Assembly (NCBI GenBank): GCA_022842945.1
Contig: JALHOO010000001.1
Span: 288,040 to 352,039, forward strand
DNA length: 64,000 bases
From: Minisyncoccota bacterium
Lineage (GTDB): Bacteria > Patescibacteriota > Minisyncoccia > Phycocordibacterales > Phycocordibacteraceae
Direction of reading: 5' to 3'
Below the pieces are notes generated by a model, which did no database searches, was not told the origin of the DNA, and saw nothing but the letters and a program-made list of their open reading frames with translations. A program made the position numbers and the translations under genes. Shown here piece by piece: positions 13,698-50,458 of the stretch (position 1 is its first letter; each line of letters begins with the position of its first letter).

Positions 13698-14231
13698 CTA
13701 CTTCGAGTTCTTCAACGCCTCAAGGTCCTCTAGCACGCGCTGAACATCTTTTGTTAGCTGTTCAAGTGTCTGTGCCTTCGTTGGCTTCCTCTTCGGCTTC
13801 TCTGTCTTCTTTGCGGGAACATCGTCGTCCTCTTCGTTGAGCTCTTCAACGTCTTCCTGAATCTCGTCGATGTCTTCGCTAATCTCCTCAATGTCTTCAG
13901 AGATCTCTTCAAGATCCTCCTGGATATCCTCCATATCCTCGCCGAGCTCTTCGAGGTCTTCGGAGATCTCATCAATCTCCTCCTCCACATCCTTAAGGGA
14001 CTGGGTGTGGCGGTTAACCGTTATCTGAATGAAGAGGGCTAGATAGATAGCCTCTAGGGAGACCACGGTTGTAAGGATAAGGAGCATGAGCTCCCACTCG
14101 ATAATGCCGAGGAAGGCAATAGCGAAGAAGAGCGTAAACACCGCAGTGTGCGCAATAAGGGAGGCGGTTGAACCGATAGTGGCGACGATTCGCTCAACGC
14201 CGGTTGGCTCTACTGGAGTAGTGTCACGCAT
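13698..14231 (-). CDS. Hypothetical membrane protein with two N-terminal TM helices and an acidic low-complexity repeat region (EEIDEISEDLEEL...)
   Basis: ORF translation. Imperfect internal repeats 'ISEDIEE/IQEDLEE'. Lys-rich C-terminal tail. Confidence 0.55.
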   Translation of the reverse strand: MRDTTPVEPTGVERIVATIGSTASLIAHTAVFTLFFAIAFLGIIEWELMLLILTTVVSLEAIYLALFIQITVNRHTQSLKDVEEEIDEISEDLEELGEDMEDIQEDLEEISEDIEEISEDIDEIQEDVEELNEEDDDVPAKKTEKPKRKPTKAQTLEQLTKDVQRVLEDLEALKNSK

Positions 14232-15892: not shown

Positions 15893-16297
15893 TTAGTAGT
15901 TGAGGAACTTGGTAGCGATGAGGTATACCGCACCTGACGTGAAGGCCGTGAAGAACGTTCCCCATGCAAGGTCTACGAACGTAAGGGGGAGTGGCCAGCC
16001 GGTGAGAGTCGCAAGGTTTGAGAGATCGTATGCGGCATAGGCTGCAAGACCGAGGAATGCACCGGTTAGGAGTACACGAACAAAGGAGTGCACGCCAAGT
16101 GCCGGCGCAACAACGAAGAATGCTATAGCAAGCGCGTAGATAACATAGAACGCTATAGCTGCAGGCCACACCACGTCAGGACGGAGCATAGAGCCCAGCT
16201 GAGAGCGGTAGAAGCCAGCGCCAACCACACCGATCCAGATGAGGTCGACGATAATCATTATTGGGAATGCGATGGTGGCTAGGATGAGTGTTTGCAT
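15893..16297 (-). CDS. DUF2177-like membrane protein
   Basis: Four TM helices; adjacent to and co-oriented with the TspO gene. Confidence 0.55.
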   Translation of the reverse strand: MQTLILATIAFPIMIIVDLIWIGVVGAGFYRSQLGSMLRPDVVWPAAIAFYVIYALAIAFFVVAPALGVHSFVRVLLTGAFLGLAAYAAYDLSNLATLTGWPLPLTFVDLAWGTFFTAFTSGAVYLIATKFLNY

Positions 16298-16353
16298 AGT
16301 GTCGGGGTTATGTAGATAAGAGTAGCATCCCTTTCCTCAAGAAAACTCCCTAA

Positions 16354-17034
16354 TTATAAAGGATCATGCTTGCCATCATTATAGAGCTTTCGGCCATACA
16401 TTACTTCAACTTCTGCAAGCCGTACTGCTTCTCCTCTGTATAAGTTATCCAACAAGAGCTGGAAATCTCTTTGTATTTCCTTTTTCCAGCCTGGCTCTTC
16501 AGGTTTCCACCAATATGATACTCCTCCATCATCAAAATCCCTTCCTATCGAGTTCAGAAGGATGGCGACATCGTTAATTAACTCATACATACTATTGCTC
16601 GATGGAATAGTAGGTAGCACGTAATTCTTCTCCCGATGTGCAAAATATGTATCTCGTGCATCTTTCAAAAGTTGCAACGATCTTGAATGCTTTATCTTGA
16701 GTTGCTCAAACTCGCTGTCTCTATTTATTTTATACTTCTTTGCCTCATCCAGTAGATATGAGAGAGTGCGTTTTTGTTTATTCTTTCCGTCTTCAAACAT
16801 CTGTGTTACGGACAGTACTGTAGCGTAACAAATGCCATGTTCTAGTGAGCGAAAGAAATAATTATATTTACCCATTACTTCTACATTGTGCTTTGCATCT
16901 TGCTCTCCCAGATACACTCTACTTTTTGAAAGAGCGCAACAAAATAAAAGTTCACAATATGTGCTGGTTTCATACAAATGACTAAAGAAGTTATTCCAGA
17001 GTTCTTTAAACATTTCTTTATTACCCGTACTCAT
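16354..17034 (-). CDS. Hypothetical protein in AT-rich island with HEPN-like Rx5H motif (RDTYFAH); putative Abi-like defence protein
   Basis: The AT-rich codon usage is unlike neighbouring genes. 226 aa, all-helical look. Motif 'ARDTYFAHREKNY'. Confidence 0.35.
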   Translation of the reverse strand: MSTGNKEMFKELWNNFFSHLYETSTYCELLFCCALSKSRVYLGEQDAKHNVEVMGKYNYFFRSLEHGICYATVLSVTQMFEDGKNKQKRTLSYLLDEAKKYKINRDSEFEQLKIKHSRSLQLLKDARDTYFAHREKNYVLPTIPSSNSMYELINDVAILLNSIGRDFDDGGVSYWWKPEEPGWKKEIQRDFQLLLDNLYRGEAVRLAEVEVMYGRKLYNDGKHDPL

Positions 17035-17309
17035 TTGTTTAAGTTTACATTATCAAAGCACTTCAAATCACAATTCGGAATTCTTTGTGGGCGGGGGTTA
17101 ATTAGACAAAAGACGCCTTTTGAGCGTCTTTTGTCTTCTAGTGTGGACATAGCATACAAAAGTTTGAACTCACTTAAAAGCTACCTAACTCGGTTCTGGG
17201 ACTACTATCAATCAAGCCCCGCCTTACAAAACGCACTTGGAAACGCCTAGTTCTCTAGACTTAGAGTACCCACAATAGAGAATTAGAATTAGTAAGGTAA
17301 ATGGAAAAG

Positions 17310-17337
17310 GTCTGGGAGACTGGGACGATGTTGGAAC
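17310..17337 (+). repeat. Conserved intergenic element, copy A (partial internal duplication: gtctgggaga-ctgggacgatgttggaac)
   Basis: Shares 'ctgggacgatgttggaac' with copies B-D. Confidence 0.8.
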
Positions 17338-17382
17338 TTTTATAAAGATTCAGGCCAGACGCTTCCGCGCCTGGCCCAAGGA

Positions 17383-17727
17383 TCATTGTAGGCGAAGATC
17401 CATCGCCTCGAACTCGCTCCGAATAAACGCCATCTCGCAGACGGCCTCGGTGTGAAGGGCCGGATTCCTGCGATCGATGTCGAGTGCCGGAATAAGCTCG
17501 TCACGAAGGCGCATGATATGACTCGCGAGTCGGCGCACATGGTCTCCATGGTTGGTCAGCACCAGCTCATCCCCGAGAACTTTACGGGTATATTCTCGCG
17601 ACTTCTCACGCGCGGTATCTTCCGCATGTTCAGCGAACTCCCTCAGGTTCTCGAAGGAAAGCAGTCCTACCATGGCGCGAGCGAAAACCTGGGTGTTGGT
17701 TAGAACGTACTGTGCACGATTCAGCAT
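17383..17727 (-). CDS. Hypothetical protein with C-terminal RNxxxH (HEPN-like) motif
   Basis: 'DIDRRNPALHTEAV' near the C-terminus of a 114-aa helical protein. Followed by hairpin 'ggccagacgc-ttcc-gcgcctggcc' and a T-run on the minus strand. Confidence 0.35.
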   Translation of the reverse strand: MLNRAQYVLTNTQVFARAMVGLLSFENLREFAEHAEDTAREKSREYTRKVLGDELVLTNHGDHVRRLASHIMRLRDELIPALDIDRRNPALHTEAVCEMAFIRSEFEAMDLRLQ

Positions 17728-17796
17728 ATCAGTCTCCGTTTCCGAGATGTATCTGCTGGGAATGTATACCTCATCGCCCTAATTGTCGAGCTAAAG

Positions 17797-17818
17797 ATTG
17801 CTGGCCGTCTGGCACGAT
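17797..17818 (+). repeat. Conserved intergenic element, diverged copy E (attgctggccgtctggcacgat)
   Basis: About 20 of 24 positions match the left half of copy D (tgctggc.gtctgg.acgat). Confidence 0.5.
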
Positions 17819-17831
17819 ATTATTCAAACGG

Positions 17832-18386
17832 CTATCTCATTATTTTAGTTAATGCTTTAAGCGCATGGGGCAATGTATTCCATCCCGCCGCCCCATTTAA
17901 ATGGCCGCCGTTCTTAACGATGACCAGCTCAGCATCCAACTCTTTAGCAAGAAAGACCCCCTGCTCTATCGGTACACTTCGGTCAGTATCGCCGTGTATA
18001 ACAACAACCTTTCCTGCCTTCTGTTTTATAGTCTTGAAATTAAAGGGTGTATTCAGGAAGCTAGCGACCTTTTTCTTCGTGATTTTGAAGACCGGACCCG
18101 AAACAAGAACGACACCGCGCACTTGCTTTCCTGGAGCTTTTTCGAGATAGCGCAGAATTGCTGGTACTCCCAGACTATGGCCGACCAGATATACCTGGTC
18201 CTTGGTATTTGATTCAACATGTCTCGAAATCTCTTTAACCCAGTCTTTTGATTCAGGCTTGTTAGGCGAGGGCATAGCAAGAGCACAGGTATATATGCCC
18301 TGCTTATCAAGTTCAGCCATAAGCCATGGCCGCCATCCTCCATTAGGACTGCCTTCGAAACCATGGATTAAAAATACCTTTTTCAT
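17832..18386 (-). CDS. RBBP9/YdeN-family alpha/beta serine hydrolase
   Basis: 'MKKVFLIHGFEGSPNGGW...VYLVGHSLGV...VVVIHGDTD' gives the GHSLG nucleophile elbow and catalytic Asp/His spacing. Confidence 0.7.
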   Translation of the reverse strand: MKKVFLIHGFEGSPNGGWRPWLMAELDKQGIYTCALAMPSPNKPESKDWVKEISRHVESNTKDQVYLVGHSLGVPAILRYLEKAPGKQVRGVVLVSGPVFKITKKKVASFLNTPFNFKTIKQKAGKVVVIHGDTDRSVPIEQGVFLAKELDAELVIVKNGGHLNGAAGWNTLPHALKALTKIMR

Positions 18387-18392
18387 ATTTTG

Positions 18393-19121
18393 TTATGCTG
18401 CGTACGACACACGAATCGCGTCTTTCTCCTTCTTAATCTTTCGGATTGTAATAGTGCCAATAGTTCCTAGATTGTTCACGTGAGTTCCTCCGCAGGGAAT
18501 GCCTGCTGCTCCGTACATAACCACTCGCGCGGGCTTTCCTTCTGGGAGATACTCGGGCACGTTTTGGCAGACCGTATGCATCTCTTCTTTCGGCATGAAC
18601 TGTATGGAAACCGCATCTGCACGCATGACGATTTCGTTCGACTTCTCCTCAAGAGCTTTCTTGAATGTATCAATGTCTCCTGCCTCCTCTATGTCTCCCT
18701 AGTATTCAACGTAGGGTCCTTGCGGGAAGTGATAGCCCTTCCCGGGCTTCCAATGAATGTTCGGAAACTCTAGGAGCGCGAGATCAACGACGTGCCCTGC
18801 AGAGTGCAAGCGTGCATGAAGTAGCCGTCTCTCGGCATCTACTTCGCACTGAACTGTTTCGCCTGCAGAGAAGTTGCCCTGCTCAAACATTCCCACGTGC
18901 TTCACGATTCCATCAACGAACCTCACTTCTTCTACTTTGAATACAGCAGACGCAGAACGTATAAAGCCCTGATCAAAAGGCTGTCCTCCGCCTTGAGGGT
19001 AGAAGATAGTCTGATCCAATACGACCACCGTCTTTCCTTCCTCTTCTTCAACTGCCAGAACCTCAGCCTCAAGAGCTAAGAGGCTCATATCTTCGAGGTA
19101 TGTAAGGGATGTTGGCTTCAT
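18393..19121 (-). pseudogene. alaX: AlaX-M-type alanyl-tRNA editing protein interrupted by one in-frame TAG (at 18701..18699)
   Basis: ORFs 18699..19178 and 18393..18626 are in the same frame, separated only by TAG. Together they carry 'QTIFYPQGGGQPFDQG', HxxxH ('HSAGHVV') and CxxxH ('CGGTHV') Zn motifs of the AlaRS editing core. TAG is a real stop elsewhere (mltG, topA). Confidence 0.7.
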
Positions 19122-19140
19122 TGGGTTAATCGTATCAGAT

Positions 19141-19176
19141 TTTATTGCTGGGGGTGTGGGACGATGTTGGAACCGC
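19141..19176 (+). repeat. Conserved intergenic element, copy B (tttattgctgggggtgtgggacgatgttggaaccgc)
   Basis: About 32 of 38 positions identical to copy D. About 20 nt upstream of the alaX start on the minus strand. Confidence 0.85.
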
Positions 19177-19461
19177 ACTAGTCAGCCTTAACAACATAAA
19201 AGGCTAAAACTCCTTCCTGTTGTTCCTCTCAAGCGTAGACTTAGAAGTTCCTTGTCGAACCGCCCTGAAGAAGGCTACTACCTTGGTCAGAAGTCCTTAT
19301 TCTGTCTGGAAAGACATGCCTGTACGTGAGCAGCATGAGCTCTTTTTCTTTATCTTTGACGCTAAACTGACGTATAGCAAAAAAGATGGCTATCGAACCG
19401 CAGAAACGCCAACAGCCGCAAGGCTTTTTGAAGGCTTTGCGGCTGTTGACTCTTCTACGGT

Positions 19462-19533
19462 GGACCGTACAGGATTCGAACCTGCGACCCTCTCATTGCA
19501 AATGAGATGCTCTACCAACTGAGCTAACGGCCC
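19462..19533 (-). tRNA. tRNA-Ala (anticodon TGC)
   Basis: GGGCCGT/TA/GCTC-AGTTGGTA-GAGC/A/TCTCA-TTTGCAA-TGAGA/GGGTC/GCAGG-TTCGAAT-CCTGT/ACGGTCC/A. G3:U70 and A73. Confidence 0.9.
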
Positions 19534-44693: not shown

Positions 44694-45119
44694 CTATCCC
44701 TTCCAGACGATGCGGTCGAGGGACCACTTGCCAGCACCTGAGAGCGCGAGCGACGCACTTCCTGCAAGAAGAAGCAGTATAAACTCATACCCTCCGGTAC
44801 TCATGAAGAAGCCGTTTGGAAGGTGCACCATGAAGAGTGCCACGAGTGACACCACAACAAGAGACTTCGCTGCCCAACGAGTAAGGAAGCCAACGATGAG
44901 CATGATACCGCCGAGAAGCTCAGCAGCGATGAGAAGCACTGCGAAGAACTCAGGTGCAGGGAATCCGAGAGACGAAACGAATCCTGCGGTGCCTGCAATT
45001 CCACCCTGGAGCTTCTGCCATCCATGCATAGCAAAGATGACACCCACCGCAAGACGAAGCACGAGCGGTGCGTAGTCGCGCCAGCTATCCATATAAGAGC
45101 ACTGTAAGAATTTCTTCAT
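44694..45119 (-). CDS. DoxX family membrane protein
   Basis: 'LVLRLAVGVIFAMHGWQKL...' gives the DoxX pattern and four TM helices. Confidence 0.75.
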   Translation of the reverse strand: MKKFLQCSYMDSWRDYAPLVLRLAVGVIFAMHGWQKLQGGIAGTAGFVSSLGFPAPEFFAVLLIAAELLGGIMLIVGFLTRWAAKSLVVVSLVALFMVHLPNGFFMSTGGYEFILLLLAGSASLALSGAGKWSLDRIVWKG

Positions 45120-45190
45120 AGAGATACGTAATAAGTAACCTCTTTATTGTATCCCTACTTCAGGAAGGCAATGTGGGGACAGGTGCGTAT

Positions 45191-45445
45191 CTATGGCTTC
45201 TTGCAAAGACCCATCTTCTCCTCGCGAGTGAGCTTCTTAATAGCTGCTTCCCTGATGCAGGCTTCGCTTCTCGTATCAAATGCTTCCTGGTGTACAAGCA
45301 CTACGGGTCTGCGCACGCGTGTGTACTTTGCTCCTTTTGGAGACGTGTTGTGTTCTTCTAAGCGGCGCGTGAGATCTGTGGTTACGCCCGTGTAGAGGGT
45401 GCCGTCAGCGCAGGTGAGGATATAGACGTACCAATCAGAAGACAT
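45191..45445 (-). CDS. GIY-YIG nuclease family protein (UPF0213/YhbQ-like)
   Basis: 'WYVYILTCADGTLYTGVTTDLTRRLEEHN' is the GIY-YIG core. 84 aa. Confidence 0.85.
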   Translation of the reverse strand: MSSDWYVYILTCADGTLYTGVTTDLTRRLEEHNTSPKGAKYTRVRRPVVLVHQEAFDTRSEACIREAAIKKLTREEKMGLCKKP

Positions 45446-45523
45446 GCGATAAGTGTACTCCCTTTGCTCGAGGTGCGAGCTCCCTTACATCAAGACATGA
45501 AGAGCAAATGATAGAATTGTTCT

Positions 45524-46024
45524 ATGGAATCAAGTGACGCAAAGATAAATATTGCGTATATAGACGCAGCCAATCTTGATAGAGCTATTAGAGATCTGCA
45601 GTGGAAGCTGGACTATAAAAAGTTTAGGGTCTGGCTTGCAGATAAATATAAAGTAGAACGCGCATATATTTTTATTGGACTTATCCCAAAGTACAAGGAT
45701 TTGTATACATACTTTCAGGAATGTGGATTTACATTGGTCTTTAAAGAGGTTGTATATCAAGGTAGCGGTGTACCTAAAGGAAATTGTGACACTGACTTAA
45801 TCATGCAGGCCATAGACGATGCGTATGAAGACCGACTTGAGAAGGCTTTACTAATTTCTAGCGATGGAGACTATGCGCCACTCGTAAAGAAGTTACAAGT
45901 ACGCAACCAGTTCCTCGGGATTCTCTCTCCTGCTCCTGCAAAGAAGTGTTCGATTCTATTGAAACGAACAAATGCGCCGATTGCTTATATTAACGACCAG
46001 AAAAAACTTCTGCAGATAAAATAA
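45524..46024 (+). CDS. NYN-domain (LabA-like PIN-fold) protein in an AT-rich island
   Basis: 'YIDAANL...KGNCDTDLIMQAIDDAY...LISSDGDYAPLVKKL' matches the NYN/LabA acidic motif arrangement. AT-rich codon usage. Confidence 0.7.
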   Translation: MESSDAKINIAYIDAANLDRAIRDLQWKLDYKKFRVWLADKYKVERAYIFIGLIPKYKDLYTYFQECGFTLVFKEVVYQGSGVPKGNCDTDLIMQAIDDAYEDRLEKALLISSDGDYAPLVKKLQVRNQFLGILSPAPAKKCSILLKRTNAPIAYINDQKKLLQIK

Positions 46025-46135
46025 AAAGGCCCCCGATGCGGACGAGCCGCATAAGGGTCCTTTTCGTGGTGATACGAGCATTATACTCTTCGAATTCTGA
46101 AGGGTCAATGATATCCCCACCATCCTTAGAGTGGC

Positions 46136-47623
46136 TTATTTAGCGAGATCCAAGACCTCGTCTATCCGGATTTGCTCCACGAACTCAGGAACGTGTGACA
46201 CGAGCACCATAGCGCCTTCGTACTGGTCGAGTGCTTTAGCAATAACCGGGATGTGGCGGAAGTTTATGTGGTTGGTTGGCTCGTCGAGAATGAGGAGACC
46301 TGGCTGCATGAGAACTAACCGCGCGAACGCAACAAGTCCCTTCTGTCCTTCAGAGAGCGCGCCAATCTTCTTGTTGATGGAGTCGCTGGTTATGATGAAG
46401 CTCGCTGCAACCTTGCGCATCTGCTCTTCGTTTGGCTTGTCCATTGCCTGAAGCAAGGACTCGCGCACCGTGTGCTCAAAGTTAAGGGTTGAGAAGTCCT
46501 GTCGGTAGTAGCCAACCTTCACGCTCTTCGTTATGGCAGCGCCCTTAGCGGTGCCGTTCGCCAAAGACTCAAGGAGTGTGGTCTTGCCAATACCGTTAGG
46601 ACCCTTAAGAAGAAGATGCTGTTTCTTCTTCATAACGATGTTTGCAGACTTCTCTTTCGGCTGATGGGTCTTCGGATCAATTATAGAAAGGGAGCTGATG
46701 GTGAGAATCTCTCCTACGATGTCTTCCTGTACGGGAATAACGAACGGGCGAATGGTCTTGTCCTCCTTACGGACATCAACCTTAGACTCCTCCATCTCCT
46801 CAATCTCGTCACGCATCTTCTTTGCAACCACACGCATCTTGCCTCCCTTCTGTGCGAAGAAGTTCGCTTTGTCCTTGTTGTCCTGGATCTTCTTCTCGAG
46901 CTGAGCGTTCTTGCGATTTTCGCGCTCAATACGGGCTGAGATCTCGTTTAGGAGGTCGTAGTAGTTTCCGACGTACTGCTCTACCTTCTTGGTGTGCACA
47001 TCGAGGTAGAGGACGCCGTTCGAGAACGTGTTCAAGAACTCTGCGTCATGGGAAATAACCATAACGGTCTTCTCGTAGGTAAGGAGGAACTTTGTGAGGT
47101 GCTCGATGCCGGCTGTGTCGAGATTGTTCGTAGGCTCGTCAAGCAGAAGGAGGTCTGGGTCCTGAATAAGGGCAGACGCAAGAAGAAGACGTGCCTGCTG
47201 GCCTCCAGAGAAGGTCTTTATGATGCGATCATGCGGCGCATGGAGGTTCACCACCTCAAGCACCTCATCAATCTTTGGATCAATGTCGTACACCTTCTCG
47301 GCAAAACGCTTCTCGAAAAAGGCACGCACGGTAAGTTCCCTGTCTTCCGGCACAATAACCTGGTGCGAAAGGGCAATGGTGAGGCCGCGAGGCGTCTGAA
47401 TCTTTCCGCTCTCAGGCTTTAGCGTCCCTTCGATCATCTTGAAGATAGTGGACTTGCCTGCACCGTTCTGTCCCATGAGGGTAACCTTCATTCCCTTACG
47501 CAACGAGAAGTTAACCTCCGTAACAATAGGGTAGTTGTGCCCGTAGTTGAACGAGACGTCCTCAAAGCGCAAGACCGCTTCTTGCGGTCCATTACTTGTC
47601 TTTGCTGGTGCGTTCGGCGCCAT
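46136..47623 (-). CDS. ABC-F family ATPase (two tandem ABC domains, no TMD)
   Basis: Two Walker A motifs ('GQNGAGKST', 'GPNGIGKTT'), two 'LSGG/LSEG' signatures, and an inter-domain charged linker. 495 aa. Confidence 0.85.
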   Translation of the reverse strand: MAPNAPAKTSNGPQEAVLRFEDVSFNYGHNYPIVTEVNFSLRKGMKVTLMGQNGAGKSTIFKMIEGTLKPESGKIQTPRGLTIALSHQVIVPEDRELTVRAFFEKRFAEKVYDIDPKIDEVLEVVNLHAPHDRIIKTFSGGQQARLLLASALIQDPDLLLLDEPTNNLDTAGIEHLTKFLLTYEKTVMVISHDAEFLNTFSNGVLYLDVHTKKVEQYVGNYYDLLNEISARIERENRKNAQLEKKIQDNKDKANFFAQKGGKMRVVAKKMRDEIEEMEESKVDVRKEDKTIRPFVIPVQEDIVGEILTISSLSIIDPKTHQPKEKSANIVMKKKQHLLLKGPNGIGKTTLLESLANGTAKGAAITKSVKVGYYRQDFSTLNFEHTVRESLLQAMDKPNEEQMRKVAASFIITSDSINKKIGALSEGQKGLVAFARLVLMQPGLLILDEPTNHINFRHIPVIAKALDQYEGAMVLVSHVPEFVEQIRIDEVLDLAK

Positions 47624-47700
47624 AGTCTTCCTATCCTACACTATTTGTGTCGTATTGATAAGCGGGAGGTTGGAGCAAGCCTGGCTAATTCAAAATCACA

Positions 47701-47722
47701 AGTCTGGGACGATGCTGGAACC
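47701..47722 (+). repeat. Conserved intergenic element, copy C (agtctgggacgatgctggaacc)
   Basis: 21 of 22 positions match the core of copy D. Confidence 0.85.
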
Positions 47723-47779
47723 ATATATGCAAAACCGCCCCAATCATCGTAGCTGGGGCGGCAGGATAGACAAACTATA

Positions 47780-48190
47780 TCAATGAGCAGGAGTCAGGGT
47801 GTAAAGCTGATCAACTGTTGCTGAACGTTCCGCTTTGGTTATGTACAATTCCCAGGTAATAACTAGGTTTCCGGATGGGAAAACTAATTTGAGCATCAGC
47901 TCACTATCATCTGGGTTTTGTTGGAAGGCAGTATCGATCTCAACGCAGAGAGCAATAAGGCCCATTTCAAGAAGACTCGAAATCCTCAGACAGGTGTCCT
48001 TAGAGGTTGTGGCGAGACCGTAACGCTTGTTCGTACTGAGATCAGTGCACCAGAATCGATACACACGAACTCCCAGTTCCTCTCTGGCCACCAAAGCATC
48101 CATAAGAATGGTTTGATTGCCGGTTAGACTCTCAGTCGAGCTAGCTTTCTTAGCTTTCAATGTAAGCGTTTGCACTGCAACTCTCCTCAT
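47780..48190 (-). CDS. Hypothetical protein (136 aa) in an AT-rich island
   Basis: AT-rich ORF followed on the minus strand by hairpin 'ccgcccca...tggggcgg' and the conserved repeat element. Confidence 0.4.
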   Translation of the reverse strand: MRRVAVQTLTLKAKKASSTESLTGNQTILMDALVAREELGVRVYRFWCTDLSTNKRYGLATTSKDTCLRISSLLEMGLIALCVEIDTAFQQNPDDSELMLKLVFPSGNLVITWELYITKAERSATVDQLYTLTPAH

Positions 48191-48308
48191 TAGCAGAATC
48201 CACGGTAACGTCGCTAACCCGTATACCTGCTTGAATGATCAATACGACGTTATGCTTATTTAATATTAAATTCAGTGCAAGTCAATTCCTGGCAAACTAG
48301 GTATCAAA

Positions 48309-49538
48309 CTACGCACTCATCCCCGCCACATACCCCGTCGTCCAGCACAGCTGAAGCGAGTATCCTCCCGTTGGTCGCTTGATGTTAAGCAGATCTCCGA
48401 TAACAAAAAGATTGCCACAAACTTTTGAGCGCATGGTCTTGGTGTCAATCTCGGTTAGCGTTACGCCGCCGTCCGCAACAACCGCACGCGAAAGTCCCAT
48501 AAGTCCGGTTATAGTAAGCGGGAGTGCCTTAAGGAGTTCTGCAACACGCCTGCGTTCTTCCTTGGTTATGCTGTGCACACGCTTGTCTCGATCTATGTTC
48601 GGAAGGAGCGTAAGGAGGGCGTCACTAGTTCCCGCAGGCACAATCTGCCTCAGTACGTTCTGGAACTCTTTGTTCTTGTTTTGATCAAACACGCCTGCAA
48701 TATGCTTGTCGAGAATACCAAGATCCATAACAGGATACGCATCAATCGCCGCTGTTACCTCTCCTTCCTGCATGAGGTCGCTAATCTTTCCTGCTGCGTT
48801 AAGGATAAGGGGACCCGAGATACCAAAGTGCGTCATAAGCACATTGCCCTTGAGGACGAACTTCTTTGTGCCGTTCACATATACCGTCATCTTCATGTCA
48901 GGAATGGTGATGCCCGCAAGAGACTTTGCCCAGGTCTCACGCACCTTAACCGGCACAATAGTTGGGGTTGGATCGGTAACGGTGTGGCCGAGATCGGAAA
49001 GCCAACGGAACCCGTCTCCTGTTGAACCAGTCTCTGGGTGTGACACGCCGCCAGTCGCGAATATGTAGGAGGTAGCGGTGTACTCCTTTCCTCCCATGAG
49101 CACGCTCTTAATAGAACCGTTGCTTGCGTATACGCGCGCAACAGGAAGGCCCACCTTTATATCAACACCCTGCTCCTTTACGTAGGCAAACATAGCTGCC
49201 GTTACGTCCTCTGCGTTTTGTGACTCAGGGAATGCACGCTTCTTTGCTTCAACAACGATAGGTACCTCGATACTGTCAAAGAACTCGTAGGTTTCTTTAA
49301 GACCAAACTGCGAGAATGGAGAGTGCAGGAAGTTCGCACTGTCCCCAAAGTGCGAAAGCAAAAGACGCTCGTCCTCCTCTGCGTTCAGAATGTTACACCT
49401 GCCTCCACCTGTTATAGAAAGTTTCTCGCCAAGGCGCTTGTTCTTCTCAATAAGAAGAACCTTCTTCCCCTGGGAACCAGCGATACCGGCTGCCATCATG
49501 CCTGCAGCTCCTCCTCCAACAACAATTACATCGTACAT
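48309..49538 (-). CDS. HI0933-like / aminoacetone-oxidase-family FAD-binding oxidoreductase
   Basis: 'YDVIVVGGGAAGMMAAG' Rossmann fold and the family-specific 'ITGGGRCN'. Confidence 0.85.
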   Translation of the reverse strand: MYDVIVVGGGAAGMMAAGIAGSQGKKVLLIEKNKRLGEKLSITGGGRCNILNAEEDERLLLSHFGDSANFLHSPFSQFGLKETYEFFDSIEVPIVVEAKKRAFPESQNAEDVTAAMFAYVKEQGVDIKVGLPVARVYASNGSIKSVLMGGKEYTATSYIFATGGVSHPETGSTGDGFRWLSDLGHTVTDPTPTIVPVKVRETWAKSLAGITIPDMKMTVYVNGTKKFVLKGNVLMTHFGISGPLILNAAGKISDLMQEGEVTAAIDAYPVMDLGILDKHIAGVFDQNKNKEFQNVLRQIVPAGTSDALLTLLPNIDRDKRVHSITKEERRRVAELLKALPLTITGLMGLSRAVVADGGVTLTEIDTKTMRSKVCGNLFVIGDLLNIKRPTGGYSLQLCWTTGYVAGMSA

Positions 49539-49548
49539 ATCAGTTAGA

Positions 49549-49926
49549 TTAGGCATCAGACCACACGGCGAGCTCGTTGCCAGCAGGATCAGTAAAATGG
49601 AATCGCTTTCCTCCCGGGAAATCGAATATCGGGTTAACAATAGCGCCTCCCGCTTCTTCTACATCCTTAAGGGTCTGTGAGAGGTCGTTTGAGTAGAGGA
49701 TAACCAGAGCACCTTCTTTGCCACGATTGGTTCCTTTCTCGAATCCGCCGTCGAGAGTACCGTCCGTAAAGGCAGTGTAGGTTGGGCCGTAGTCGGTGAA
49801 CTGCCAGCCAAACACCTTCATATAGAAGGCTTTAACGGCCTCCAGATCCTCCGCAGGGAATTCGATGTAATTAATGGCGTGATGCCTGTTCATGTAGCTA
49901 CAGTACCTTGACTGCAGAGTCTGCAC
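49549..49926 (-). CDS. VOC (glyoxalase/bleomycin-resistance) family protein
   Basis: 'INYIEFPAEDLEAVKAFYMKVFGWQF...' is the VOC beta-alpha-beta-beta-beta module. Alternative start at 49893. Confidence 0.7.
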   Translation of the reverse strand: MQTLQSRYCSYMNRHHAINYIEFPAEDLEAVKAFYMKVFGWQFTDYGPTYTAFTDGTLDGGFEKGTNRGKEGALVILYSNDLSQTLKDVEEAGGAIVNPIFDFPGGKRFHFTDPAGNELAVWSDA

Positions 49927-49950
49927 AAAGCAGGACTGCAGATTCTCGGT

Positions 49951-49988
49951 TATTTACTGCTGGCAGTCTGGGACGATGTTGGAACCGC
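49951..49988 (+). repeat. Conserved intergenic element, copy D (tatttactgctggcagtctgggacgatgttggaaccgc)
   Basis: Longest, reference copy, between the VOC gene start and the stop of the AT-rich ORF 49994..50347. Confidence 0.85.
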
Positions 49989-49993
49989 CTTCT

Positions 49994-50347
49994 TCAGGTT
50001 TCAATACAAGTCTGTCTAAATTCTGTTGCCTTCCCCTCAGTATCTAAGGACACTCTAAGGGTGCATTGATATGAGAAGTTCTTTCCCTCTGAGTCAACAT
50101 ACTCTAGATCAATCCTGCATGTCCCGTTTTCATCATTTCCTAGGAATGATGAGTTCTGGAGCTTGAGAATCTTCTGTTCTTCTATTTCTTTCCATACTTT
50201 CCGTATCTCATCCCATGTTGTCATGGGATGAGATCCTTCCTCTTCGTAATAGGCTATGTCGTCTGCTAAGAGATCCTGTATAGATTCAATATCTTTGCGT
50301 ATCCATGCCCCCTTTAGTTTTTCAAACCACTCAAAGGATTTGTTCAT
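49994..50347 (-). CDS. Hypothetical protein (117 aa; NTF2/SnoaL-like fold suspected) in a small AT-rich island abutting tRNA-Gln
   Basis: AT-rich codon usage. Lies between the conserved repeat element and the tRNA gene. Confidence 0.45.
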   Translation of the reverse strand: MNKSFEWFEKLKGAWIRKDIESIQDLLADDIAYYEEEGSHPMTTWDEIRKVWKEIEEQKILKLQNSSFLGNDENGTCRIDLEYVDSEGKNFSYQCTLRVSLDTEGKATEFRQTCIET

Positions 50348-50356
50348 TGTCTCTAG

Positions 50357-50427
50357 TATATCAATGCTGGGAGACTAGGGATCGAACCTAGATTGAGGGC
50401 TTCAAAGGCCCCTGTCCTACCATTAGA
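50357..50427 (-). tRNA. tRNA-Gln (anticodon TTG)
   Basis: TGGGAGA/TC/GTCT-AATGGTA-GGAC/A/GGGGC-CTTTGAA-GCCCT/CAAT/CTAGG-TTCGATC-CCTAG/TCTCCCA/G. U1:A72 and G73 are typical Gln features. Confidence 0.85.
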
Positions 50428-50458
50428 CGATCTCCCAGTGCGAACGCCTTAATCCTGC

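What the first reader, a model, noticed from the sequence alone, without database searches (positions are those of the whole stretch)
16298..17830. AT-rich accessory island with two HEPN-motif proteins and a YdeN hydrolase, bounded by copies A and E of the conserved element
- The gene at 16354..17034 is markedly AT-rich compared with every neighbouring core gene. It carries an Rx5H motif (RDTYFAH) in a helical 226-aa protein, consistent with a HEPN/Abi-type RNase.
- Its upstream region holds a perfect 13-bp hairpin (17104-17136, agacaaaagacgc/gcgtcttttgtct), then copy A of the repeat.
- Next come a 114-aa protein ending in RNPALH (canonical HEPN Rx4-6H placement near the C-terminus), copy E, and an RBBP9/YdeN serine hydrolase with lower GC.
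- The arrangement looks like an inserted defence or toxin module between the TspO/DUF2177 pair and the alaX-tRNA-Ala region.
Basis: partly seen in the sequence, partly recalled or inferred. Interest (0 to 1): 0.55.

Follow-up and report, generated by a model that had tools for sequence, protein, structure and literature searches.

The report
AbiU2-type HEPN gene in tRNA-anchored islet
A small, AT-rich, horizontally acquired gene for a predicted RNA-cutting (HEPN, AbiU2-family) protein sits in a hypervariable stretch next to a tRNA-Ala gene of a Patescibacteria genome; only one of the two claimed HEPN proteins holds up, and the "conserved element" around it is an undescribed, very widespread 30-nt repeat that separates gene-sized units.

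Summary

**Confirmed**
- The gene at 16354..17034(-) is the lowest-GC stretch of the window (GC 0.376, GC3 0.35, z = -4.6).
- It passes Pfam's cutoff for HEPN_AbiU2, and its R127-x5-H133 motif is invariant in 22 homologues.
- The hairpin, repeat copies A and E, and the YdeN hydrolase are real.

**Not supported**
- The 114-aa protein is not a HEPN protein. It belongs to an uncharacterised family of 34 relatives in which RNPALH is not conserved. Its GC is native, and its relatives sit among housekeeping genes.
- Only about 16299-17140 is AT-rich.

**Context**
- Nine sister genomes show that the whole tRNA-Ala(TGC)-to-DUF2177 interval is hypervariable: 81 nt in one relative, 3.16 kb here.
- A C-terminal remnant of a large serine recombinase overlaps the tRNA-Ala 3' end.
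- The AbiU2-like gene appears in eight different contexts elsewhere, including next to a methylase plus GmrSD, a transposase, and integrases. It is AT-rich in every one.

**Verdict:** a new member of a known kind, a stand-alone predicted HEPN RNase acquired at a tRNA hot spot. A defence role is inferred, not shown.

**Side finding:** the 30-nt repeat forms co-oriented arrays of diverse single-gene units in more than 120 metagenome contigs. Its function is unresolved.

The parts
19459..19533 (-). tRNA-Ala(TGC). It is the conserved anchor of the variable interval and directly follows ddl in every sister genome.
19208..19519 (+). C-terminal remnant of a large serine recombinase gene. It converges on tRNA-Ala and overlaps its 3' end in antisense.
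   Evidence: phmmer E = 3.7e-6 against 2027 ORFs. BLASTP to residues 440-502 of the 525-aa L007 recombinase gives E = 5e-9. The L007 protein has Resolvase, Recombinase and Zn_ribbon_recom domains. Intact relatives overlap tRNA genes in the same way.
19146..19174 (-). Copy of the 30-nt conserved element, 27 nt upstream of the likely alaX start (ATG at 19121).
18393..19121 (-). alaX-type (AlaX editing domain) gene interrupted by an in-frame TAG at 18699-18701.
   Evidence: Pfam tRNA-synt_2c. Translation and sequence. The same split appears in independent Logan contigs.
17832..18386 (-). RBBP9/YdeN-type serine hydrolase, GC 0.456.
   Evidence: PF06821 E = 1.2e-27. GHSLG motif. GC.
17790..17826 (-). 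Copy E of the element. The 3' half is conserved (17799-17818) and the 5' half has diverged.
17383..17727 (-). orf114, a small four-helix protein of an uncharacterised family. H60, in an LTxHAxHMR motif, is the only invariant residue. It is not HEPN.
17350..17379 (-). Terminator-like hairpin (13 pairs) directly after the orf114 stop codon.
17141..17338 (-). Copy A of the element (17318-17338), followed by a conserved non-coding segment. The segment is 91% identical to L012:7732-7924.
   Evidence: No Rfam match. A tRNA origin is not significant.
17104..17136 (.). Perfect 13-14 bp hairpin. It is homologous to the hairpin that follows tRNA-Ala in L012 and marks the upstream edge of the AbiU2 insertion.
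16299..17140 (-). Inferred AT-rich insertion: the hairpin, a 69-nt leader, the AbiU2-like gene and a 55-nt tail. L012 lacks it at the orthologous site.
   Evidence: Homology with L012 stops at 17141 and resumes at 16298. GC 0.38-0.39.
16354..17034 (-). AbiU2-family HEPN protein, 226 aa. R127-D128-x4-H133 and E52-x3-K56 are conserved. It is a predicted metal-independent RNase.
15893..16297 (-). DUF2177 membrane protein, the conserved flank on the far side of the variable interval.

Best explanation
The window comes from a Patescibacteria (Paceibacterota/Minisyncoccia-like) genome.

**Anatomy**
- The stretch from the 3' end of tRNA-Ala(TGC) to DUF2177 (about 16298-19458) is a hypervariable, tRNA-anchored islet built by successive insertions.
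- At the tRNA junction lies the decayed 3' end of a large serine recombinase gene. It is the footprint of an integrative element.
- Next come gene-sized units, each preceded by a widespread 30-nt element: an alaX gene with an in-frame TAG plus the YdeN hydrolase, then orf114, then a 197-nt conserved non-coding segment.
- Last comes a separately acquired, AT-rich, 0.84-kb insertion (about 16299-17140). It consists of a hairpin and one gene.

**The gene**
- It encodes a stand-alone AbiU2-family HEPN protein.
- Inferred mechanism: a metal-independent endoribonuclease. H133 and R127 of the invariant Rx5H motif, helped by D128 and an upstream conserved Glu, would cleave RNA and leave 2',3'-cyclic phosphate ends.
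- By analogy with other HEPN Abi proteins, it would act as a phage-triggered, growth-arresting effector.

**Shown versus inferred**
- Shown here: family membership, motif invariance, compositional anomaly, absence from orthologous sites, scattered contexts, and the recombinase remnant.
- Inferred: RNase activity, an anti-phage role, and recombinase-mediated insertion.
For: **Family**
- Pfam HEPN_AbiU2 scores 36.2 bits (gathering cutoff 26.8) over residues 7-170.
- R127, D128, H133 and E52 are invariant and K56 is nearly invariant (>=90%) in 22 homologues of 57-78% identity.
- The AF2 model is all-helical (pLDDT 78.8).
- Anantharaman 2013 (PMC3710099) describes AbiU2 as a HEPN family with a conserved Rx4-6H motif, found in R-M operons.

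**Acquisition**
- The gene is the lowest-GC stretch of the window (z = -4.6).
- Homologues have GC 0.38-0.42 in hosts of GC 0.46-0.55. Only the coding sequence is shared between loci.
- L012 carries the same upstream 197 nt (91% identity) and DUF2177 without the gene.
- L010 has only 81 nt between tRNA-Ala and DUF2177.
- The interval measures 81 nt to 3.9 kb in nine sister genomes, with different contents.

**Mobility and defence-type contexts of homologues**
- A 4-bp overlap with an EcoRI-like methylase, close to GmrSD and DUF2726.
- Next to an IS1595 transposase.
- 3 kb from a serine recombinase plus a tyrosine integrase.
- Directly after tRNA-Ala in L002.
- Next to DUF4145.

**Recombinase remnant:**
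Against: - No PADLOC, NCBIfam or PHROG model matches the protein, and no relatives were found in viral contigs.
- In the founding lactococcal system, AbiUi alone confers resistance and adding AbiUii (AbiU2) lowers it. No AbiU2 protein has been shown to defend on its own (PMC13064643).
- No conserved partner gene, antitoxin or sensor is visible.
- No att-type direct repeats or conserved cassette ends flank the AbiU2-like gene.
- The resemblance of the 197-nt segment's end to the tRNA-Ala 3' end is not statistically significant.
Confidence: 0.72

Rival explanations
1. The AbiU2-like protein is a HEPN-fold protein but not a defence effector. It could be a modulator or regulator, as AbiUii appears to be in Lactococcus. 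It could also be an RNA-processing or selfish toxin-like gene that persists simply because it is mobile.
For: - AbiUii lowered rather than conferred resistance (PMC13064643).
- No PADLOC hit.
- No conserved partner across eight contexts.
- Several contexts are not defence islands.
Against: - The catalytic motif is invariant, which implies selection for enzymatic activity.
- Some homologues sit with R-M, GmrSD or DUF4145 genes.
- The literature predicts RNase function for HEPN families that keep Rx4-6H.
Confidence: 0.2
2. The region is a two-HEPN toxin or defence module (226-aa plus 114-aa proteins, with the hydrolase), inserted as one AT-rich island bounded by repeat copies A and E.
For: - RNPALH sits at the start of the last helix of a predicted four-helix bundle.
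- The genes are adjacent and on the same strand.
Against: - RNPALH is not conserved in the 32-member family alignment.
- The orf114 gene has native GC of 0.557.
- Its homologues sit in housekeeping contexts.
- The genes are separated by a terminator, an element copy, 197 nt of conserved non-coding DNA and a second hairpin.
- L012 shares the DNA between the two genes but has neither gene.
Confidence: 0.04
3. The low GC is not a sign of horizontal transfer. It would reflect gene-specific constraint (amino-acid content or expression level) in a vertically inherited gene, and the variable interval would result from differential loss.
For: - All homologues are AT-rich whatever the host GC.
- Three of the contexts lie near ddl (window, L002, L172).
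Against: - GC3 is 0.35 against 0.55-0.60 in the neighbours, so codon choice differs and not only amino-acid content.
- The gene is absent from seven of nine sister intervals and occupies different positions within the interval.
- It occurs next to transposases and integrases in unrelated contexts.
- The AT-rich tract extends into the non-coding leader.
Confidence: 0.06

Closest known systems
AbiU2 (AbiUii) family of HEPN proteins, Pfam PF18734 (Anantharaman et al. 2013; lactococcal AbiU, Dai et al. 2001)
   Same: - HMM match above the curated cutoff.
- Conserved Rx5H with a polar residue after the Arg, and an upstream Ex3K.
- All-helical protein of about 200-230 aa.
- Some homologues lie in R-M-type operons, as described for the family.
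   Different: - No AbiUi partner.
- The host is an ultra-small Patescibacteria genome rather than a lactococcal plasmid.
- The homologues found form a tight clade (57-78% identity to the window protein); the two with a source name are Patescibacteria/Minisyncoccia.
- No experimental phenotype exists for any stand-alone AbiU2.
tRNA-anchored genomic islets or integrative elements built by site-specific recombinases
   Same: - The variable DNA starts exactly at the 3' end of a tRNA gene.
- An empty site exists in a relative.
- A recombinase gene (remnant) lies at the tRNA junction.
- The cargo has anomalous composition.
   Different: - The recombinase is a large serine recombinase, not the usual tyrosine integrase, and is reduced to about 100 codons.
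- No significant tRNA-derived direct repeat was found at the far end.
- The islet is only 3.2 kb and is a mosaic of single-gene units.
Integron cassette arrays and CALINs (comparison for the 30-nt element arrays)
   Same: - Co-oriented repeats at gene-sized spacing.
- Very diverse, mostly single-gene cargo with almost no spare DNA.
- The same unit occurs in different arrays with unrelated neighbours.
   Different: - No IntI-type integrase was seen next to the arrays.
- The repeat is a 30-nt contiguous conserved sequence, not a 55-140-nt structured attC.
- Only 13% of copies have an upstream inverted partner.
- The element also precedes ordinary genes such as ABC-F and purD.
HepT/DUF86 minimal HEPN toxins of HEPN-MNT toxin-antitoxin pairs (comparison for orf114)
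   Same: - Similar size (114 aa).
- Predicted four-helix bundle.
- An RNxxxH string at the start of the last helix in this one sequence.
   Different: - The motif is not conserved in the family.

Membership tests
HEPN_AbiU2 (PF18734) | Match to the family HMM above the curated gathering score | tested here: met
   36.2 bits against a cutoff of 26.8, E = 5.4e-9. Residues 7-170 align to profile positions 6-175 of 193. All 24 homologues carry the precomputed PF18734 hit.
HEPN_AbiU2 (PF18734) | Conserved Rx4-6H motif with a polar residue after the Arg (PMC3710099) | tested here: met
   R127-D128-T-Y-F-A-H133. R127, D128 and H133 are invariant in 22 sequences.
HEPN_AbiU2 (PF18734) | Second conserved acidic residue upstream, typically Ex3[KR] | tested here: met
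   E52 is invariant and K56 is at least 90% conserved (E52-x3-K56). Equivalence to the canonical position is inferred, not shown structurally.
HEPN_AbiU2 (PF18734) | Four-helix up-down HEPN fold | tested here: inconclusive
HEPN_AbiU2 (PF18734) | Metal-independent RNase activity | not testable with these tools
   Needs biochemistry.
Lactococcal AbiU abortive-infection system | Presence of the AbiUi (AbiU1) effector, which is sufficient for resistance | tested here: not met
   No PADLOC model matches the three proteins tested (AbiU2-like, orf114, YdeN). DUF2177, on the other side, was identified by Pfam only.
Lactococcal AbiU abortive-infection system | Phage-resistance phenotype | not testable with these tools
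   The host is uncultivated, so a heterologous assay is needed.
HEPN superfamily (for the 114-aa protein) | Rx4-6H conserved across the protein's own family | tested here: not met
   In alignment A6 (32 sequences) R87 is variable and H92 is mostly Arg. H60 is the only invariant residue.
HEPN superfamily (for the 114-aa protein) | Sequence, profile or fold similarity to a HEPN family | tested here: not met
HEPN-MNT (HepT-MntA) toxin-antitoxin | Adjacent minimal nucleotidyltransferase antitoxin gene | tested here: not met
   The neighbours are the YdeN hydrolase and non-coding DNA.
RBBP9/YdeN serine hydrolase (PF06821) | HMM match and a GxSxG nucleophile motif | tested here: met
   E = 1.2e-27, 97.3 bits against a cutoff of 22. 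The sequence contains VGHSLGV.
tRNA-anchored genomic island | Insertion abuts a tRNA gene and is absent from relatives | tested here: met
tRNA-anchored genomic island | Site-specific recombinase gene at the junction | tested here: met
   Only a C-terminal remnant of about 100 codons is present. Intact relatives overlap tRNA genes in the same manner.
tRNA-anchored genomic island | Direct repeat of the tRNA 3' end at the distal boundary | tested here: inconclusive
   The local alignment score does not exceed shuffles. The adjacent hairpin does match the post-tRNA hairpin of L012 (80% over 45 nt).
Integron / CALIN (for the 30-nt element arrays) | IntI integrase next to the array, and attC sites with paired R''/L''-L'/R' structure | tested here: not met
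   No integrase lies upstream of the L052 array. Only one tyrosine recombinase was found in 690 kb of element-bearing DNA. An upstream inverted partner is present in 35 of 263 copies.

The most novel reading that the evidence does not exclude
The 30-nt element (AAAGGTTCCAACATCGTCCCAGAC.GCCAGCAA) may be the boundary or recombination site of a previously undescribed cassette system in Patescibacteria that lacks an integron integrase.
- It would consist of co-oriented arrays of diverse single-gene units.
- The arrays would be seeded next to tRNA genes (mostly tRNA-Gln; tRNA-Ala here), possibly by large serine recombinases.
- The window's islet would be a short example of such an array.

The main competing reading is that the element is a lineage-specific promoter or 5' leader of an accessory 'housecleaning' regulon.
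Probability: 0.3. Interest if true: 0.8.

Novelty: new member of a known kind. Interest (0 to 1): 0.42.

Why it matters
- Patescibacteria (CPR) have tiny genomes and, to my knowledge, few recognised defence systems. A stand-alone AbiU2-type HEPN gene that moves between their genomes adds a candidate single-gene immunity or toxin function to this group.
- It is also a compact test case (226 aa, invariant Rx5H) for asking what AbiU2 proteins do on their own. That has never been shown.
- The tRNA-Ala and tRNA-Gln hot spots, with recombinase genes overlapping the tRNA 3' ends, show how these reduced genomes take up accessory genes.
- If the 30-nt element proves to be a cassette boundary, it would define a new gene-capture architecture in a major uncultivated lineage.

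Tried and rejected
- **Foldseek of the AbiU2 model against the PDB:** nothing below E = 0.6.
- **PDB sequence-profile searches for both families:** nothing.
- **PADLOC, NCBIfam and PHROGs for the AbiU2-like protein and orf114:** PADLOC and PHROGs gave no hits; NCBIfam gave none for the AbiU2-like protein and one negligible sub-threshold hit for orf114.
- **Viral contigs scanned with the AbiU2 alignment:** no relatives.
- **Rfam on the window and, in permissive mode, on 17050-17400:** only tRNAs and two chance-level sRNA matches.
- **The 197-nt segment as a tRNA-derived gene or displaced tRNA-Ala 3' end:** relaxed ARAGORN found nothing in the window copy. The alignment score equals the shuffle mean. 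The idea is rejected as unsupported.
- **The 197-nt segment as a stably folded RNA:** z = -1.76 only, and most of that comes from the terminal hairpin.
- **orf114 as an orphan:** the word-indexed search found only the protein itself, but the exhaustive HMMER search found 34 relatives.
- **The 114-aa ORF of L013 at the equivalent position:** unrelated to orf114.
- **My 'downstream hairpin' statistic for the element:** the background rate was higher than the observed rate, so I discarded it.
- **Sigma-70, sigma-54 and ECF promoter readings of the element, and a dif/Xer-like dyad:** considered by inspection only. None fits the contiguous conservation pattern.
- **Literature search for the element's sequence:** nothing relevant.
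Full report
**1. What is at the coordinates**

Region 16298-17830 holds two minus-strand genes, and a third follows just beyond it:
- 16354..17034, 226 aa.
- 17383..17727, 114 aa.
- 17832..18386, 184 aa.

Sliding-window GC falls to 0.36-0.39 at about 16400-17200, against about 0.52 on either side. Per feature, the values are:
- The 226-aa gene has GC 0.376 and GC3 0.35. It is the lowest-GC 681-nt stretch in the whole window (z = -4.6).
- Its upstream non-coding leader has GC 0.39.
- The 114-aa gene has GC 0.557, with the native GC1/2/3 pattern.
- The hydrolase gene has GC 0.456.

The AT-rich tract is therefore about 0.84 kb, not the 1.5 kb claimed. The 13-bp hairpin at 17104-17136 is real (-21.1 kcal/mol, z = -7).

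**2. The 226-aa protein**

- It passes Pfam's gathering cutoff for HEPN_AbiU2 (36.2 bits against 26.8), covering nearly the whole model.
- A search of 5.8 billion proteins returned 24 homologues at 58-100% identity. All carry PF18734. The two that carry a source name are labelled Patescibacteria or Minisyncoccia.
- In a 22-sequence alignment, R127, D128, H133 and R134 of RDTYFAHR are invariant. E52 is invariant and K56 nearly so.
- These features match the description of HEPN active sites in Anantharaman et al. 2013: Rx4-6H, a polar residue after the Arg, and an upstream Ex3[KR]. That paper lists AbiU2 as a HEPN family with the motif conserved and with R-M operon associations (PMC3710099).
- The AlphaFold model is all-helical (pLDDT 78.8). 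Foldseek against the PDB found nothing significant.
- PADLOC, NCBIfam and PHROGs gave no hits, and viral contigs gave no relatives.
- A 2026 review records that in the founding lactococcal system AbiUi alone confers resistance, and that AbiUii (AbiU2) lowers it (PMC13064643). A defence role for a stand-alone AbiU2 is therefore an inference, not established knowledge.

**3. The 114-aa protein**

- The word-indexed search found only the protein itself. An exhaustive HMMER scan of 1.84 billion representatives found 34 relatives of similar length at 30-51% identity.
R87 is variable and H92 is mostly Arg.
- The only invariant residue is H60, in an LTxHAxHMR motif at the start of helix 3.
- No family member matches any Pfam family consistently.
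- There is no PDB sequence relative and no profile similarity to the AbiU2 family.
- Three homologues lie among housekeeping genes: aminoacyl-tRNA synthetases, TatD, S6/SSB/S18, RRF, and TatA/TatC.

The second-HEPN claim is not supported. The protein belongs to an uncharacterised small helical family.

**4. The hydrolase**

Pfam Ser_hydrolase (RBBP9/YdeN) matches at E = 1e-27, and the sequence carries a GHSLG nucleophile motif. This claim is confirmed.

**5. Core or accessory?**

Using DUF2177 as a probe, I retrieved nine Patescibacteria sister loci at 70-81% protein identity.
- Mapping the window's proteins and tRNAs onto them shows a conserved frame: UvrC, Ddl, tRNA-Ala(TGC), a variable interval, DUF2177, TspO, YceG, DUF948.
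- The distance from the tRNA-Ala 3' end to DUF2177 is 81 nt in L010, where it holds only a terminator hairpin.
- It is about 0.6 kb in L012, 0.7-1.2 kb in L014 and L016 (with other tRNAs), 2.6 kb in L015, 3.9 kb in L018 (the same contig as L002), and 3.16 kb in the window.
- No sister interval contains a detectable homologue of alaX, YdeN or orf114.
- Only L018 carries the AbiU2-like gene, and there it directly follows tRNA-Ala.

**6. Boundaries of the AbiU2 insertion**

- L012:7732-7924 is 91% identical to window(-) 17337-17141.
- Homology then stops and resumes only at the DUF2177 start codon (16298).
- The insertion is therefore about 16299-17140: the hairpin, a 69-nt leader, the gene and a 55-nt tail.
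- The hairpin with its 5' flank resembles the hairpin that follows tRNA-Ala in L012 (80% over 45 nt). This fits an ancestral arrangement in which the AbiU2 gene lay directly downstream of tRNA-Ala, as it does in L002/L018.
- I tested whether the end of the 197-nt segment is a displaced tRNA-Ala 3' end. The similarity does not exceed shuffles, and relaxed ARAGORN finds nothing in the window copy. I do not claim an att repeat.

**7. Mobility of the AbiU2-like gene**

Eight contexts were examined.

| Locus | Context |
|---|---|
| Window | before DUF2177 |
| L002 | directly after tRNA-Ala |
| L004 | next to an IS1595 transposase |
| L005/L006 | 4-bp overlap with an EcoRI-like methylase, near GmrSD and DUF2726 |
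| L007 | 3 kb from a large serine recombinase plus a tyrosine integrase, next to copper-resistance genes |
| JGI contig | next to an isochorismatase |
| L171 | before DUF4145 |
| L172 | two genes upstream of ddl |

In the four homologue loci measured (L002, L004, L005, L007) the gene has GC 0.38-0.42 against 0.46-0.55 for the rest of the locus, as in the window (0.376 against 0.522). Only the coding sequence is similar between these loci (72-75% nucleotide identity), and the flanks are not. This is the behaviour of a horizontally exchanged accessory gene. No defined cassette ends are visible.

**8. A recombinase footprint**

- A local phmmer screen found that window 19208-19519(+) matches the C-terminal tail (residues 440-502 of 525) of the L007 large serine recombinase. 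That stretch lies between tRNA-Ala and the first repeat element. The phmmer E-value is 3.7e-6, and the pairwise BLASTP E-value is 5e-9.
- The L007 protein carries Resolvase, Recombinase and Zn_ribbon_recom domains.
- The remnant converges on tRNA-Ala and overlaps its 3' end in antisense.
- Related intact genes do the same. In L128 the gene overlaps tRNA-Leu. In L115 it abuts tRNA-Gln, and a duplicated tRNA-Gln 3' end follows the tRNA. In L007 it overlaps a sequence resembling a tRNA 3' end.

The islet therefore began as, or received, an integrative element that used a serine recombinase at the tRNA 3' end. That this enzyme inserted the present cargo is an inference.

**9. The 'conserved element'**

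On the minus strand it reads AAAGGTTCCAACATCGTCCCAGAC.GCCAGCAA.

*In the window*
- Copies lie at 19146-19174, 17318-17338 (A), 47702-47722 and 49966-49986, with a half-copy at 17799-17818 (E).
- The last two full copies lie downstream of tRNA-Gln, in this order: tRNA-Gln, a SnoaL-like gene, element, a glyoxalase gene, an HI0933-like gene, a 136-aa ORF, element, an ABC-F gene.

*In metagenomes*
- Conservation is one contiguous block of about 30 nt.
- In 69 of 70 loci with two or more copies, all copies are on one strand. Spacing is mostly 300-800 nt.
- Units usually hold one ORF. The stop codon lies 0-20 nt before the next element in 46 of 83 same-strand units. The start codon usually lies 20-50 nt after an element.
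- 79 unit ORFs fall into 75 sequence clusters.
- The cargo includes NUDIX (4 units), GNAT, HAD, SDR, methyltransferases and a YdeN-type hydrolase. It also includes purD.
- At least five opposite-strand unit ORFs are real genes. Some other opposite-strand calls were artefacts that start in the reverse complement of the next element.
- One unit recurs in three arrays at 65-67% nucleotide identity. The homology runs from one element to the next, and the neighbouring units are unrelated.
- Ten of 50 arrays with enough upstream sequence have a co-oriented tRNA within 1.5 kb upstream, against about 1.7 expected. Nine are tRNA-Gln and one is tRNA-Ala.
- The element aligns to the T-arm and acceptor 3' strand of tRNA-Gln (20 of 24 positions, shuffle p about 0.006). 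It is, however, more conserved than those tRNA ends themselves.
- No integron-type integrase is adjacent to the arrays. Only 13% of copies have an upstream inverted partner. Neither Rfam nor the searchable literature describes the element.

Two readings remain open:
- A lineage-specific promoter or leader of an accessory regulon.
- A boundary or recombination site of modular cassettes.

In either case, copies A and E delimit orf114, not the AbiU2 gene. AbiU2 homologues elsewhere lack the element.

**10. Verdict**

- The second HEPN protein, the extent of the AT-rich tract, and the single bounded module are not supported.
- The best description has three parts. The first is a tRNA-Ala-anchored mosaic islet with a decayed serine-recombinase gene. 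The second is a set of element-delimited units. The third is a separately acquired single-gene AbiU2-type HEPN insertion.
- The protein's predicted activity is a motif-dependent RNase. Its biological role is most likely abortive-infection-type defence or a selfish toxin, and that role is untested.
- This is a new member of a known kind. The element arrays are the more unusual observation and deserve their own study.

Noticed in passing
window 17318-17338, 19146-19174, 47702-47722, 49966-49986 and 17799-17818 (all minus strand); loci L051-L170, L012, L013: A 30-nt contiguous conserved element (AAAGGTTCCAACATCGTCCCAGAC.GCCAGCAA) is present in more than 120 metagenome contigs. It forms co-oriented arrays spaced 300-800 nt apart, made of tightly packed units that mostly hold a single gene. 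The cargo is highly diverse (75 clusters among 79 ORFs). One unit recurs in three arrays with unrelated neighbours. The arrays are enriched downstream of tRNA-Gln. The element is absent from Rfam and from the searchable literature. Whether it is a promoter or leader, or a cassette boundary, is unresolved.
   Followed up: partly
window 19208-19519 (+): A C-terminal remnant of a large serine recombinase overlaps the tRNA-Ala 3' end in antisense. Intact relatives overlap or abut tRNA-Leu (L128:9865-10938) and tRNA-Gln (L115:111-1586). In L115 and L057 a duplicated tRNA-Gln 3' end follows the tRNA. L051 carries a second partial tRNA-Gln copy.
   Followed up: partly
window 18393-19121 (-), stop codon at 18699-18701: The alaX-type gene (AlaX editing domain) carries an in-frame TAG (...PYVEY*GDIEE...) and then continues in the same frame into the tRNA_SAD part. 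The same split appears in independent Logan assemblies (L001, L009). It may be a pseudogene, a readthrough site or a recoding event.
   Followed up: partly
window 17141-17317 (-) and L012:7752-7924: A non-coding segment of about 175-197 nt after element copy A is 91% identical between two genomes whose flanking proteins are only about 80-86% identical. In both genomes it ends at a strong hairpin. It could be an sRNA gene or a non-coding cassette. There is no Rfam match, and the fold z-score is only -1.76.
   Followed up: partly
window 17383-17727 (-); proteins P0026-P0057: orf114 belongs to an unannotated family of small (about 100-150 aa) four-helix proteins. The family has an invariant His in an LTxHAxHMR motif and matches no Pfam family. 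Its members are found in housekeeping neighbourhoods.
   Followed up: partly
window 45100-46050: This is the only other strongly low-GC stretch of the window. It holds a small GIY-YIG nuclease (45191..45445 -, 84 aa) and a NYN-domain protein (45524..46024 +, 166 aa), next to a DoxX membrane protein. It may be another acquired nuclease pair.
   Followed up: partly
window 46136-50437 (-): A second element-containing stretch lies downstream of tRNA-Gln. The order is tRNA-Gln, a SnoaL-like gene (117 aa), element, a glyoxalase/bleomycin-resistance-like gene (125 aa), an HI0933-like flavoprotein (443 aa), a 136-aa ORF, element, and an ABC-F ATPase (495 aa). GC is low at about 49850-50050.
   Followed up: partly
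window 13698-14231 (-): A DUF948-like membrane protein with a highly acidic, 21-nt-periodic repeat (EDLEEISEDIEEI...). It is conserved in all sister loci.
   Followed up: no
L171:5858-6499 and L005:1511-2743: AbiU2 homologues sit next to a DUF4145 protein (L171). In L005/L006 the homologue overlaps an EcoRI-like methylase gene by 4 bp and lies close to GmrSD and DUF2726 genes. These may be operon partners and are worth a systematic co-occurrence analysis.
   Followed up: no
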